Below the pieces are notes generated by a model. That model saw nothing but the letters and a program-made list of their open reading frames with translations. It was not told the DNA's origin and made no database searches. The translations under genes and the position numbers were made by a program. Shown here in pieces: positions 42,188 to 44,041 of a stretch of 64,000 bases of DNA (position 1 is the first letter of the stretch; each line of letters starts with the position of its first letter). This DNA comes from Escherichia coli (GTDB lineage: Bacteria; Pseudomonadota; Gammaproteobacteria; Enterobacterales; Enterobacteriaceae): the NCBI RefSeq assembly GCF_051903065.1, contig NZ_CP178438.1; one strand, written 5' to 3'.

Positions 42188-44041
42188 TTACCTTTCCAGT
42201 CGCCTTGCTCCGCGCTCAGAGAGACGTTCGCGTACTGCTGACCGTTGATCGTTATTCAATCTGGCAGTACGGTTACTGTCGTTTAGACGTTGTGGGCGGC
42301 TCTCCTGAACTCTCTCCCGAAAAACCTGACGTTGTTCAGGTGATGCTGATTGAACACGCTGGCGGGCGTTATCACGTTGCTGTTGGTTCAGTGGGCGCTG
42401 CTGTACTTTTTCCTTAAACACCTGGCGCTGCTCAGGCGAGGCTGACTGAATACGCTCACGCGCTGCCTCTCTTCGCTGCTGGATCTGTGGGTTAGTCTGC
42501 ATTTTCTCGCGGACTGCCTGGCGCTGCTCAGGCGAGGCGGACTGAATGCGCTCACGCGCTGCGTCTCTTCGCTGCTGGATCTGCGGGTTAGTCTGCATTC
42601 TCTCGCGAACTGCCTGGCGCTGCTCAGGAGAAGCTGACTGATAACGCTGACGAGCGGCGTCCTTTTGTTGCTGGGTCAGTGGTTGGCGACGGCTGAAGTC
42701 GCGGAAGTCGTCATAGCTCCCATAGTGTTCAGCTTCATTAAACCGCTGTGCCGCTGCCTGACGTTGGGTATCTCGTGTAATGACGGGGGCGGCGTGTGTT
42801 CGTTGCTGAAACTGACTTGCTGCCGCCTGACGCTGGCTGTCGCGTGTTGGAGCAGGTAGCTGCGTGGCACTCATTCCGCCGTTGACATCGGTTTGATGAA
42901 ACCGCTTTGCCATATCCTGATCATGATAGGGCACACCATTACGGTAGTTTGGATTGTGCCGCCATGCCATATTCTTATCAGTAAGATGCTCACCGGTGAT
43001 ACGGTTGAAATTGTTGATGTCGATATTGATGTTGTCGCCGTTGTGTTGCCAGCCATTACCGTCACGATGACCGCCATCGTGGTGATGATAATCATCATCG
43101 TCATGATGATGATGGTCATGATCGTCGTCGTCCCAGTCGATGCTGCTGAATAGTGCGTACGTGGTAGCAACGCCCATGCTATAGCCGAATCCGCGTACAA
43201 AGCTGTCAACAAACGGTTCTCCGGCTGGTGGTGGCAGATAAACCGGCGGATACGCAGTATTGGCCCAGTTCCCGTAAACCACGGTTGGGTTGTAGTTGGG
43301 AATATAGACCACATCAGGATTGGCGGGCTCAATGGAAATGACGGTTGTTGCAGGCTCTGTAATGACGGGGTTGGCAGTTGAAACGGTATTGGATGGTATG
43401 ACGGGAGCCGTGACTGTCTGTGTTACCGGTACAGTTTTCTTCGTTGTGGTAATAACTTTCTGTTCGGTTGATGACTTCAGCGAGCCGGTTTGTTGCGCCA
43501 GTTGCCGCAATCGCTGTACCGAGTCCATCACGTCCTGCGGCTGCGCCAGAAAAGCATCGCCCAGGTTTTGCACCCATTGCGGGTTTTCGCCCATCAACGC
43601 CATCAATTGTGGAAAGGCCACCAGTGATTTGACGCTAGCGTCCCACGGCTGGTCAGATACCGCCTGAATAGCAGCATCGCCTTGTTTAAGTGGATTATCG
43701 TGCGACCATTGCACTGCTTGAGCAACGTTTGCCGGATAGGTTGATGCCATTAACACTTGTGAAAGCAGAGAGTCGGGGTATAGCGCGACGGGCGCGACCC
43801 ATTGATCTATTTGTGCAGTGCTGAATGCGGATTTAACGACGGCGGGTGTTACGGGAGGCGCGGAAACCGTTGCAGGAAGCGTAACCGCGGCAGCGTCAGA
43901 CACAGCCAGTTGTGTCGATTGCGTTTCCACAGGCGCTTCCACTGTGCGGCTTTTTATATATAGCCCGGCAGAGGCGGCACAAAGCCCGGCACTGCAAATT
44001 AGCGCCAGCACATGGGGTTTAAACGGCAAAGTCATTTTCAT
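42188..44041 (-). CDS. yacH: YacH, secreted repeat-containing protein of unknown function (DUF3300-like)
   Basis: 617-aa ORF with signal peptide, His/Asp-rich tract and tandem ~32-aa Gln/Arg-rich repeats. Confidence 0.9.
   Translation of the reverse strand: MKMTLPFKPHVLALICSAGLCAASAGLYIKSRTVEAPVETQSTQLAVSDAAAVTLPATVSAPPVTPAVVKSAFSTAQIDQWVAPVALYPDSLLSQVLMASTYPANVAQAVQWSHDNPLKQGDAAIQAVSDQPWDASVKSLVAFPQLMALMGENPQWVQNLGDAFLAQPQDVMDSVQRLRQLAQQTGSLKSSTEQKVITTTKKTVPVTQTVTAPVIPSNTVSTANPVITEPATTVISIEPANPDVVYIPNYNPTVVYGNWANTAYPPVYLPPPAGEPFVDSFVRGFGYSMGVATTYALFSSIDWDDDDHDHHHHDDDDYHHHDGGHRDGNGWQHNGDNINIDINNFNRITGEHLTDKNMAWRHNPNYRNGVPYHDQDMAKRFHQTDVNGGMSATQLPAPTRDSQRQAAASQFQQRTHAAPVITRDTQRQAAAQRFNEAEHYGSYDDFRDFSRRQPLTQQQKDAARQRYQSASPEQRQAVRERMQTNPQIQQRRDAARERIQSASPEQRQAVREKMQTNPQIQQRREAARERIQSASPEQRQVFKEKVQQRPLNQQQRDNARQRVQSASPEQRQVFRERVQESRPQRLNDSNRTARLNNDQRSAVRERLSERGARRLER
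42421..42612. repeat. Two near-identical tandem 96-bp repeat units inside yacH, flanked by degenerate copies
   Basis: Units 42421-42516 and 42517-42612 differ at only a few positions; further degenerate copies on both sides (about 42300-42710). Confidence 0.85.

What the first reader, a model, noticed from the sequence alone, without database searches (positions are those of the whole stretch)
43000..43140. Extreme Asp/His-rich low-complexity tract in YacH
Seen in sequence: the yacH product contains DWDDDDHDHHHHDDDDYHHHDGGHRDGNGWQHNGDN, encoded by a GAT/CAT-rich stretch. In a signal-peptide-bearing protein this resembles a periplasmic metal-binding segment (Ni, Zn or Cu). YacH function is unknown and the gene sits a few genes from cueO. 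The metal-binding role is inference only.
Basis: inference. Interest (0 to 1): 0.3.

Follow-up and report, generated by a model that had tools for sequence, protein, structure and literature searches.

The report
Asp/His-rich loop in YacH protein
The E. coli protein YacH does carry an extreme aspartate/histidine stretch, which is an enterobacteria-specific expansion of a three-residue turn in a widespread exported protein family of unknown function; it probably binds metal ions chemically, but nothing yet shows that this is its job.

Summary
**Observation confirmed.** yacH (window 42188-44041, minus strand, 617 aa) encodes DWDDDDHDHHHHDDDDYHHHDGGHRDGNGWQHNGDN at aa 302-337 (window 43031-43138). 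Chance does not explain 20 Asp/His in 24 residues.

**What it is.**
- A low-confidence (probably disordered) loop between two short strands of a DUF3300 protein.
- In 74/98 and 110/119 sampled homologs this position is a 3-residue Gly/His/Arg turn.
- All 62 intact Enterobacterales orthologs have a 16-44 aa Asp/His insert instead (0-18 His). Cupriavidus, Pseudomonas and Variovorax do not.
- Length varies among E. coli strains.
- An 8-bp deletion inside the tract DNA truncates YacH in several Salmonella Typhimurium strains.

**Selection.** Mixed synonymous codons and near-absence of Glu (4 vs 603 Asp) suggest selection on composition.

**Metal role.** Binding is chemically expected but physiologically unsupported:
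- no metal-regulator box upstream
- no metal phenotype found in the searched literature
- no metal genes in conserved context

The cueO proximity is coincidental. Published links are to envelope stress (CpxR, Rob, ampicillin, cationic peptides).

**Verdict.** A new member of a known kind, His/acidic-rich low-complexity loops. Modest interest.

The parts
42188..44041 (-). yacH coding sequence (617 aa plus stop), a DUF3300 protein
   Evidence: ORF list. Pfam PF11737 E=1.3e-78 over aa 75-333. Annotated as yacH in 5,416 of 5,426 complete E. coli genomes.
43031..43138 (-).
   Evidence: Exact string match and coordinates. Charge by segment. AF2 pLDDT below 50 for aa 308-313 and 318-334.
43067..43132 (-). 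D/H core (aa 304-325, DDDDHDHHHHDDDDYHHHDGGH); contains the CAT x4 and GAT x3 codon runs
   Evidence: Codon list. 23 tract variants among 120 E. coli protein clusters, with His run 3-6 and Asp run 3-4. Coordinates.
43133..43159 (-). Conserved segment before the loop (aa 295-303, YALFSSIDW); W303 is at least 90% conserved family-wide; corresponds to WGxC[DN]W in non-enteric homologs
   Evidence: Alignment A1 nearly-invariant list. Motif profile. AF2 strand 299-301.
42998..43033 (-). Conserved Asp/Asn-ladder strand after the loop (aa 337-348, NINIDINNFNRI); family consensus D-V-N-I-N-V-N-R-Y-N-N-I-N
   Evidence: Position-by-position profile of 98 homologs. AF2 strand 338-340 and pLDDT 80-94 for aa 340-380.
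42926..42964 (-). Conserved W-x-H-x-P-x-x-R-x-G-V-P-Y motif (aa 360-372, WRHNPNYRNGVPY), beyond the end of the Pfam match; H362 is at least 90% conserved
   Evidence: A1 nearly-invariant columns, H362. Motif present in 168 of 226 homologs. High pLDDT.
43043..43819 (-). Pfam DUF3300 match (aa 75-333); its C-terminal end falls inside the tract
   Evidence: The helical sub-domain aa 75-184 has pLDDT above 94.
43952..44017 (-). N-terminal hydrophobic helix (aa 9-30), either a signal peptide or a signal anchor
   Evidence: Kyte-Doolittle 2.04 for aa 11-29, the only TM-like window. AF2 helix 9-30. Cleavage was not predicted because no SignalP-type tool was available.
42305..42661 (-). C-terminal 96-bp (32-aa) tandem repeats (..QSASPEQRQAVRERMQ..), about 3.6 copies; part of a region (aa 421-617) with net charge +18
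   Evidence: TRF. Repeat register and copy-number variants. Charge. Helical in AF2.
44042..44396 (.). yacH-acnB divergent intergenic region holding the yacH promoter; no metal-regulator consensus found
   Evidence: Consensus scan against shuffles. The acnB start near 44397 is my inference from the known AcnB N-terminus.

Best explanation
**Shown.**
- The tract is a lineage-specific, low-confidence (probably disordered) loop of the exported DUF3300 protein YacH.
- It occupies the position of what is, in most DUF3300 homologs, a 3-residue Gly/His/Arg turn. That turn joins two conserved segments: ..W-G-x-C-[DN]-W | turn | [DN]-V-[DN]-[IV]-[DN]-V-N-R-Y-N-N..
- In Enterobacterales (Enterobacteriaceae, Hafnia, Rahnella, Ewingella) the turn has grown to 16-44 residues made almost only of Asp, His, Gly, Asn and Tyr.
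- Strains differ by in-frame gains and losses of single GAY/CAY codons.
- The composition (Asp not Glu, His not Gln) is retained despite well-mixed synonymous codons.

**Inferred mechanism.**
- The loop acts as a flexible, strongly acidic, His-rich divalent-cation-binding appendage on the periplasmic side.
- It may extend an older Cys/His/Asp-lined site at the same turn.
- Binding is expected to be of low specificity: Zn, Ni, Cu and Co through His/Asp, possibly Ca or Mg through the invariant Asp4 run.
- The role would be accessory rather than essential, such as local metal capture or buffering, or metal-dependent change of the domain during envelope stress.

**Likelihoods.** The anatomical and evolutionary description is about 0.9 likely. 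A physiological cation-binding function is about 0.4 likely.
For: **Position and anatomy.**
- Exact tract and codons.
- AF2: pLDDT below 50 for aa 308-334, lying between strands 299-301 and 338-340. Flanks are confident, with pLDDT 87 before and 80-94 after.

**Family rule.**
- Exactly 3 residues between the conserved Trp and the D/N ladder in 74 of 98 homologs and in 110 of 119 of a second, environmental clade.
- His is the second most common turn residue: 50 of 222 positions and 64 of 330.
- A Cys sits at W-2 in 59% of short-turn homologs, and it is the sole Cys of the mature protein in 97 of 107.

**Lineage.**
- All 62 intact Enterobacterales orthologs have the insert. All 13 Cupriavidus, Pseudomonas, Variovorax and Binatia loci have the short turn.
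- A separate environmental sub-clade grew D/H/Y inserts of 8-20 aa at the same turn.

**Selection on composition.**
- Pooled composition is D 36.7%, H 27.2% and E 0.2% (4 Glu against 603 Asp).
- The first four residues after the Trp are Asp in 53-60 of 62 orthologs.
- GAT/GAC is 340/263 and CAT/CAC is 247/200. Only 8.7% of codons lie in runs of at least 3 identical codons.

**Export.** N-terminal hydrophobic helix. Family members carry signal peptides (PMC4653623).

**Chemistry (established knowledge, not tested here).** His/Asp-rich flexible segments bind Ni, Zn, Cu and Co, for example the ZnuA loop, the RcnA loop, the SlyD tail and Hpn.

**Envelope-stress regulation.** yacH is reported as CpxR-regulated (PMC9600279). 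That the Cpx response is triggered by copper is my own knowledge, not tested here.
Against: - No direct metal-binding data exist.
- None of the papers I opened on yacH concerns metals. None of the 25 top-ranked papers in a joint search of yacH with zinT, znuA, cusF, rcnA and copA contained yacH.
- No Zur, Fur, NikR, CueR, CusR, ZntR or RcnR consensus upstream scores better than shuffled sequence.
- The only conserved neighbour family-wide is DUF2950, and no metal genes recur.
- His content is not constant. It ranges from 0 to 18, and Enterobacter cloacae M-7 has none.
- The gene is truncated by an 8-bp deletion inside the tract in several successful S. Typhimurium lineages (PMC10048834; PMC3391293). 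The tract and everything after it are therefore dispensable there.
- A generic carboxylate ligand role would not explain why Glu is excluded.
- The published phenotypes concern protamine and cecropin, ampicillin, Rob and recombinant-protein yield, not metals.
Confidence: 0.4

Rival explanations
1. Tolerated low-complexity expansion with no specific function. A turn flanked by Asp/Asn/His codons (all NAY) expanded by replication slippage at the base of Enterobacterales. It persists because a surface loop tolerates it. Metal binding, if any, is incidental.
For: - 79% of tract residues are encoded by NAY codons.
- Among 120 E. coli clusters there are 23 variants, differing by single-codon gains and losses.
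- Length (16-44 aa) and His count (0-18) vary widely among genera.
- An independent expansion occurred at the same turn in another clade, which fits a mutational predisposition of the site.
- The 8-bp deletion within the tract DNA in S. Typhimurium shows the DNA is an indel hotspot and the gene is dispensable.
- YacH evolves far faster (45-60% identity between genera) than its neighbours lpdA and acnB (91-99%).
- AF2 gives the loop low confidence.
Against: - None of 62 orthologs has reverted to a short turn despite the evident indel rate.
- Synonymous codons are well mixed and only 8.7% of codons lie in identical-codon runs, so most runs are old rather than freshly slipped.
- Even so, Glu and Gln, which are one third-position transversion away, are almost absent: 4 Glu against 603 Asp.
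- The Asp4 run directly after the Trp is conserved in 53-60 of 62 orthologs.
Confidence: 0.27
2. Electrostatic or pH-responsive element, not a metal site. The loop is a polyanion at neutral pH (net -12) that loses most of its charge when His protonates in an acidified periplasm. It could fold back on the strongly basic C-terminal repeats (net +18), or interact with cationic antimicrobial peptides, and so influence envelope-stress outcomes.
For: - Charge segregation: the tract is -12 and aa 421-617 are +18.
- The experimental links are to cationic peptides and envelope stress. A yacH deletion survives protamine better than wild type, and protamine and cecropin A lower yacH mRNA. yacH is also reported as CpxR-regulated (PMC9600279).
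- A cathelicidin-derived peptide changes yacH expression (PMC6737244).
- The yacH promoter is induced by ampicillin (PMC8865558).
- yacH falls about 16-fold in a rob truncation mutant (PMC7537768).
- The conserved feature is the Asp run rather than the His count.
Against: - None of these phenotypes has been mapped to the tract.
- A simple peptide-sequestering polyanion predicts that deletion makes cells more sensitive, not more resistant.
- The basic C-terminal tail is ancestral (Arg/Gly-rich in the A1 consensus), whereas the acidic loop is new.
- His enrichment (27%) would be unnecessary for a plain polyanion, although it is needed for a pH switch.
Confidence: 0.18
3. The tract is functionally tied to copper handling together with the nearby multicopper oxidase gene cueO.
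For: cueO lies at 49825-51414, in the same 64-kb window. His-rich segments can bind Cu (established chemistry).
Against: - Five ORFs and several transcription units separate the two genes.
- No CueR or CusR box lies upstream of yacH.
- The lpdA-yacH-acnB placement is restricted to Enterobacteriaceae. Tract-bearing orthologs in Hafnia, Rahnella and Ewingella lie between a nadR-like gene and DUF2950 instead.
- The tract lacks Met and Cys, which are typical of periplasmic Cu(I) sites.
Confidence: 0.03

Closest known systems
His/acidic-rich flexible loop of the periplasmic zinc-binding protein ZnuA (cluster A-I solute-binding proteins)
   Same: Both are exported or periplasmic. Both carry a disordered loop rich in His and acidic residues inserted in a folded domain. 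According to published work on ZnuA (my own knowledge), loop length and sequence vary strongly between species and the loop is not essential for the core function.
   Different: ZnuA has a solved binding-protein fold with a separate high-affinity Zn site, sits in the Zur-regulated znuABC system, and uses both Glu and Asp in the loop. YacH has no detectable structural or sequence relative in the PDB, no Zur box, no transporter partner, and excludes Glu.
Cytoplasmic Ni/Co His-rich segments: RcnA central loop, SlyD C-terminal tail, HypB and Hpn
   Same: Extreme His plus Asp/Glu low-complexity composition, and length variability among orthologs. These are well-documented metal-binding segments (my own knowledge).
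   Different: Those are cytoplasmic, or cytoplasm-facing, and belong to defined Ni/Co pathways with metal-responsive regulation. YacH is exported and has no such context.
DUF3300 (PF11737) proteins, usually paired with DUF2950 (PF11453)
   Same: YacH is a clear member: 264 bits. It shares the helical N-domain, the Pro/Tyr-rich segment, the Gly-rich hydrophobic segment, the Trp-turn-D/N ladder and the W-x-H-x-P motif.
   Different: Typical members have a 3-residue turn, often a lone Cys two residues before the Trp, an Arg/Gly-rich tail and a DUF2950 gene immediately downstream. E. coli YacH has a 33-residue D/H loop, no such Cys, Gln/Arg-rich 32-aa tandem repeats, and no detectable DUF2950 gene in E. 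coli.
Cpx-regulated periplasmic stress proteins CpxP, Spy and ZraP (LTXXQ family; ZraP binds zinc)
   Same: Envelope-stress (CpxR) regulation is reported for yacH. The C-terminal repeats contain LTQQQ and S-P-E-Q-R-Q motifs reminiscent of LTXXQ and LTPEQ.
   Different: No Pfam match to the LTXXQ or Metal_resist families even at E up to 10, and no PDB sequence match. The resemblance is at motif level only, and it concerns the C-terminal repeats rather than the tract.

Membership tests
DUF3300 (Pfam PF11737) | Profile match above the curated gathering score | tested here: met
   264.1 bits against a cut-off of 25, aa 75-333, profile positions 2-227 of 227.
DUF3300 (Pfam PF11737) | N-terminal export signal (family members described as carrying signal peptides) | tested here: inconclusive
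   aa 11-29 are hydrophobic (KD 2.04) and form a helix at 9-30 in AF2. The roughly 19-residue core followed by Lys/Arg could be a cleaved signal or an uncleaved anchor. No signal-peptide predictor was available.
DUF3300 (Pfam PF11737) | Conserved Trp - short turn - [DN]-V-[DN]-[IV]-[DN]-V-N-R-Y-N-N strand | tested here: met
   W303 and NINIDINNFN are present. The turn is expanded from 3 to 33 residues, which is the feature under study.
DUF3300 (Pfam PF11737) | DUF2950 gene immediately downstream (reported as universal co-localisation in PMC4653623) | tested here: not met
   Only about 70 bp separate the yacH stop (42188) from the end of the lpdA ORF (42117). No DUF2950-like DNA was found in 5,426 E. 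coli genomes at blastn sensitivity. The pair is present in Hafnia, Rahnella, Ewingella, Cupriavidus and three metagenomic loci.
Physiological His-rich metal-binding segments (ZnuA-loop, RcnA-loop or SlyD-tail type) | His/acidic-rich flexible segment | tested here: met
   The 22-residue core (aa 304-325) holds 9 His and 10 Asp; pLDDT is below 50.
Physiological His-rich metal-binding segments (ZnuA-loop, RcnA-loop or SlyD-tail type) | Demonstrated metal binding by the segment | not testable with these tools
   This needs ITC or ICP-MS on purified protein with and without the tract.
Physiological His-rich metal-binding segments (ZnuA-loop, RcnA-loop or SlyD-tail type) | Metal-responsive regulation, or a metal transport or maturation gene context | tested here: not met
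   No Zur, Fur, NikR, CueR, CusR, ZntR or RcnR consensus scores better than shuffles (simple consensus scan only). The neighbours are lpdA and acnB, or DUF2950 elsewhere.
Physiological His-rich metal-binding segments (ZnuA-loop, RcnA-loop or SlyD-tail type) | Host domain with a known metal-protein fold | tested here: not met
LTXXQ / CpxP-Spy-ZraP family (considered for the C-terminal repeats) | Profile match to PF07813 or PF13801 | tested here: not met
   Neither family is listed even at E up to 10.

The most novel reading that the evidence does not exclude
The Trp-turn-D/N-ladder region of DUF3300 may be an ancestral metal site, built from a lone conserved Cys, turn His residues and flanking Asp/Asn, plus the nearly invariant His of the W-x-H-x-P motif. 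DUF3300/DUF2950 would then be a very widespread, uncharacterised periplasmic metal-handling pair, with more than 9,500 clusters at 50% identity. On this reading Enterobacterales lost the Cys, and Enterobacteriaceae also lost the DUF2950 partner. They replaced the compact site with a high-capacity poly-Asp/His loop, which turned YacH into an envelope-stress-linked metal buffer.
Probability: 0.1. Interest if true: 0.6.

Novelty: new member of a known kind. Interest (0 to 1): 0.27.

Why it matters
If the loop is a real cation-binding element, it would give the first functional handle on two things. One is YacH, an E. coli 'y-gene'. The other is DUF3300/DUF2950, a very large exported protein family with no characterised member and no solved-structure relative. 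It would also give a clean natural experiment, a 3-residue turn against a 16-44-residue Asp/His loop at the same position. That comparison can be tested directly by swapping the loop. If the loop is only a tolerated low-complexity expansion, it still illustrates how NAY-codon stretches grow, drift and occasionally inactivate a gene, as in the Salmonella Typhimurium frameshift. In that case it has little wider consequence.

Tried and rejected
1. **cueO link.** Rejected on gene order, lack of CueR/CusR boxes, and non-conserved synteny.
2. **Second transmembrane helix before the tract, which would put the tract in the cytoplasm.** The Gly-rich segment aa 280-298 scores only 0.78 on Kyte-Doolittle, against 2.04 for the N-terminal segment. 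I treat it as not membrane-spanning.
4. **NCBIfam.** No family matched.
5. **C-terminal repeats as LTXXQ/CpxP/Spy/ZraP relatives.** No profile match even at E up to 10.
6. **Placing the S. Typhimurium 8-bp deletion by searching the 8-mer in S. arizonae and E. coli genes.** This failed. It was resolved instead from the HGVS description in PMC10048834.
7. **Tandem Repeats Finder on the tract DNA.** Nothing was called there at score 30; only the C-terminal 96-bp repeats were found.
8. **Literature searches for DUF3300 and DUF2950.** They gave 3 papers and 1 paper, with no functional data.
9. **Plus-strand ORFs across the tract (for example 42893-43153, 86 aa rich in Ile, Met and Val).** These are the complement of GAY/CAY codons, not genes.
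Full report
**1. Observation**

The window around 43 kb is the E. coli aceF-lpdA-yacH-acnB region (ORF list and translations).

- **Gene.** The ORF at 42188-44041 on the minus strand encodes 617 aa. It matches Pfam DUF3300 (PF11737) at 264 bits over aa 75-333. It matches no NCBIfam model.
- **Tract.** The quoted peptide DWDDDDHDHHHHDDDDYHHHDGGHRDGNGWQHNGDN is aa 302-337, window 43031-43138.
- **Statistics.** Eleven Asp and nine His fall within 24 residues. The chance of at least 20 D/H in 24 is about 2e-19 per window.
- **Codons.** Almost every codon in the core is GAY, CAY or TAY.

**2. Anatomy of the protein**

Hydropathy finds one membrane-like stretch, aa 11-29 (2.04). The Gly-rich segment just before the tract (aa 280-298) scores only 0.78. 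AlphaFold2 was run on a 112-sequence family alignment (A1) and gave mean pLDDT 73. It predicts, in order:

- a helix at aa 9-30
- a disordered linker
- a very confident helical domain at aa 75-184 (pLDDT above 94)
- several short strands
- strand 299-301, then the tract with pLDDT below 50 (aa 308-313 and 318-334), then strand 338-340
- a confident segment to about aa 380
- helical repeats at aa 457-579

The tract is therefore modelled as a floppy loop between two short strands. That the two strands pair as a hairpin is my inference.

Charge is segregated. The tract is -12 and aa 421-617 are +18. The C-terminal part is a 96-bp tandem repeat.

No solved structure resembles the model:
- Foldseek found no hit at E up to 0.001.
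- The PDB profile search found nothing below E=0.04.

**3. What the tract corresponds to in the family**

DUF3300 is very large. A search with aa 70-410 found 9,525 cluster representatives at E up to 0.001.

- **First sample.** Among the 150 best representatives plus YacH itself, 98 had a recognisable motif. Of these, 74 have exactly three residues between a conserved Trp (W303 in E. coli, at least 90% conserved) and a strand of consensus D-V-N-I-N-V-N-R-Y-N-N-I-N.
- **Second sample.** In an environmental clade, 110 of 119 have the 3-residue turn, most often HGG.
- **Turn composition.** The turn is rich in Gly, then His, then Arg.
- **Local consensus.** In 182 short-turn homologs it is W-G-x-C-[ND]-W-[HGR]-G-G-[DN]-V. 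A Cys sits two residues before the Trp in 59%, and it is the only Cys of the mature protein in 97 of 107.
- **Long inserts.** Only a handful of sampled proteins have 20 or more residues at this turn, and all of those inserts are Asp/His-rich.

E. coli YacH has 33 residues there.

**4. Distribution and variation**

*Across genera.* A scan of species-representative genomes returned 80 loci.

- All 62 Enterobacterales orthologs with an intact region carry the insert. They include Escherichia, Salmonella, Citrobacter, Klebsiella, Raoultella, Enterobacter, Kluyvera, Leclercia, Atlantibacter, Franconibacter, Hafnia, Rahnella and Ewingella, among others.
- Insert length is 16-44 aa (median 26.5). His count is 0-18 (median 7). 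Asp count is 6-15.
- All Cupriavidus, Pseudomonas, Variovorax and Binatia loci have the 3-residue turn.
- Pooled composition is D 36.7%, H 27.2%, G 14.3%, N 8.5%, Y 6.6% and E 0.2%.
- The first four residues after the Trp are Asp in 53-60 of 62 orthologs.
- The insert usually ends ..G-G-Y-x-H-N-G-D.
- One genome, Enterobacter cloacae M-7, has no His at all in a 17-residue insert.

*Within E. coli.*

- The region is present in 5,416 of 5,426 complete genomes.
- 120 protein clusters show 23 tract variants. They differ mainly by one to three His or Asp residues, plus one DWDDD duplication.

*Independent origin.* A small environmental sub-clade (P0168, P0306, P0307, P0339) has separately grown D/H/Y-rich inserts of 8-20 aa at the same turn.

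**5. Slippage or selection?**

Three findings point to instability of the DNA.
- Strains differ by single His or Asp residues.
- All of D, H, N and Y are NAY codons, and these make up 79% of tract residues.
- In S. Typhimurium, an 8-bp deletion described as 850_857delGATCATCA, Asp284fs, in codons gac-gat-cat-cac, truncates YacH from 540 to 285 aa (PMC10048834). yacH is also listed as a pseudogene or frameshift deletion in 14028s, UK-1, SL1344 and D23580 relative to LT2 (PMC3391293). The lesion lies inside the tract.

Other findings argue against slippage alone.
- Across the 62 orthologs, Asp is encoded GAT 340 / GAC 263 and His CAT 247 / CAC 200.
- Only 8.7% of 1,641 codons lie in runs of three or more identical codons.
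- Third positions are therefore well mixed by synonymous change, yet the transversions that would give Glu or Gln are almost absent: 4 Glu against 603 Asp.
- No ortholog has reverted to a short turn.

Together these argue that the composition, above all the Asp run, is under selection. The exact length and His number are free to drift. This is an argument from pooled composition, not a formal test.

**6. Context and regulation**

*cueO and synteny.*
- cueO (49825-51414, +) is about 5.8 kb away with five ORFs between.
- lpdA-yacH-acnB synteny holds across Enterobacteriaceae. The neighbours are 91-99% identical between genera, while YacH is only about 45-60% identical.
- In Hafnia, Rahnella and Ewingella the tract-bearing gene lies elsewhere and is followed by a DUF2950 gene (E=1e-94 to 1e-99).

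*The DUF2950 partner.*
- The same DUF3300-then-DUF2950 pair occurs in Cupriavidus and in three distant metagenomic loci, where the other neighbours vary.
- The pairing was noted before, with no function assigned (PMC4653623).
- No DUF2950-like DNA was found in E. coli genomes (blastn sensitivity only).

*Regulator boxes.* The yacH-acnB intergenic region has no Zur, Fur, NikR, CueR, CusR, ZntR or RcnR consensus better than shuffled sequence. The CpxR and marbox consensus matches were also no better than chance in this crude scan.

**7. Literature**

| Finding | Source |
|---|---|
| yacH is reported as CpxR-regulated | PMC9600279, |
| A yacH deletion survives protamine better than wild type | PMC9600279, |
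| Protamine lowers yacH mRNA; the paper cites earlier work that cecropin A does the same | PMC9600279, |
| yacH appears in a table of expression changes caused by a cathelicidin-derived peptide | PMC6737244, |
| The yacH promoter is induced by ampicillin | PMC8865558, |
| yacH falls about 16-fold in a rob truncation mutant | PMC7537768, |
| A yacH deletion raises recombinant GFP yield | PMC7376861, |
| yacH is listed among uncharacterised genes in a regulatory survey | PMC12133099, |

None of the papers I opened concerns metals. A joint search of yacH with metal-homeostasis gene names put no yacH-containing paper among its 25 top-ranked results. The library does not cover subscription journals, so absence is weak evidence.

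**8. Explanation**

*Shown.* The tract is an Enterobacterales-specific expansion of a 3-residue turn in an exported DUF3300 protein. It is flexible, strongly acidic and His-rich. It varies in length between strains, and its composition appears constrained.

*Inferred, about 0.4.* It works as a low-specificity divalent-cation-binding loop on the periplasmic side. It may extend an older Cys/His/Asp-lined site at the same turn, and its role is accessory.

*Rivals.*
- A tolerated low-complexity expansion with no specific role (0.27). This is favoured by the variability, the dispensability in S. Typhimurium and the mutational predisposition of the site. It is disfavoured by the codon and Glu evidence.
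- An electrostatic or pH-responsive element, or a partner for cationic peptides (0.18). This is favoured by the only published phenotypes and by the conserved Asp run, but it has not been mapped to the tract.
- A copper link through cueO (0.03).

**9. Comparison with known systems**

It works most like the His/acidic flexible loops of ZnuA, RcnA, SlyD or Hpn. It is not a member of any of those families, because it lacks a related fold, metal regulation and a metal-gene context.

It is a bona fide DUF3300 member, though atypical in three respects:
- the turn is expanded
- the Cys at W-2 is absent
- there is no DUF2950 partner

The C-terminal repeats recall LTXXQ motifs but fail the profile test.

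**10. Verdict**

- The metal-binding interpretation is chemically reasonable but has no biological support, and the cueO argument fails.
- What this analysis adds is the evolutionary placement of the tract (3-residue turn to long D/H loop), the evidence for compositional selection, and the location of the Salmonella frameshift inside the tract.
- Novelty: a new member of a known kind.
- Interest is modest (about 0.27). It is raised slightly because the loop swap is a simple experiment that could open up a very large uncharacterised family.

Noticed in passing
window 42305-42661 (minus strand, yacH aa ~455-579): The C-terminal half of YacH is a 96-bp (32-aa) tandem repeat (..QSASPEQRQAVRERMQTNPQIQQRR..), about 3.6-4 copies, helical in AF2 and strongly basic. 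Copy number and spacing vary among E. coli strains: a 648-aa variant has five SASPEQRQ motifs, and 634- and 662-aa variants also exist.
   Followed up: partly
DUF3300 homologs P0121-P0423; E. coli equivalent is window 43133-43159: In non-enteric homologs a Cys sits two residues before the conserved Trp (WGxC[DN]W) in 59% of short-turn proteins. It is the only Cys of the mature protein in 97 of 107. Both lineages with D/H expansions (Enterobacterales and the P0168 clade) lack it. A lone conserved Cys in an exported protein suggests a metal ligand or an intermolecular disulfide.
   Followed up: partly
L054, L061, L065, L066, L081-L083 against window 42117-42188: A DUF3300 gene is followed directly by a DUF2950 gene in Hafnia, Rahnella, Ewingella, Cupriavidus and three metagenomic loci. 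Enterobacteriaceae yacH sits alone between lpdA and acnB, and no DUF2950-like DNA was found in 5,426 E. coli genomes.
   Followed up: yes
L001-L058 (Enterobacteriaceae loci): YacH evolves much faster than its neighbours. lpdA and acnB products are 91-99% identical between genera, while YacH is only about 45-60% identical. Several loci gave short ORFs at the yacH position (for example L003 423 aa, L071 246 aa, L078 138 aa); I did not check whether these are pseudogenes, assembly errors or contig ends.
   Followed up: partly
Salmonella Typhimurium yacH (STM0157); equivalent to window ~43100-43130: A recurrent 8-bp deletion (850_857delGATCATCA, Asp284fs) lies inside the tract-coding DNA. It truncates YacH from 540 to 285 aa in strain 69M. 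yacH is also listed as a pseudogene or frameshift deletion in 14028s, UK-1, SL1344 and D23580 relative to LT2 (PMC10048834; PMC3391293).
   Followed up: yes
window 42926-42964 (yacH aa 360-372): The conserved, confidently modelled part of the domain extends beyond the Pfam DUF3300 match, which ends at aa 333 inside the tract. It includes a W-x-H-x-P-x-x-R-x-G-V-P-Y motif with a nearly invariant His (H362). The Pfam model boundary therefore seems too short.
   Followed up: partly
window 42871-43332 (-) and 42893-43153 (+): Two spurious ORFs overlap the tract. A 153-aa ORF lies in another frame of the yacH strand, and an 86-aa ORF lies on the opposite strand. Their Thr/Ile/Met/Val-rich products are frame-shifted or complementary readings of the GAY/CAY codons, not genes.
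   Followed up: no
window 44244-44396: The mechanical ORF for acnB starts at 44244. The known AcnB N-terminus (..[15 protein letters not shown]..) begins about 51 codons later, near 44397. The yacH-acnB divergent intergenic region is therefore about 355 bp rather than 200 bp (the start site is my own knowledge).
   Followed up: no
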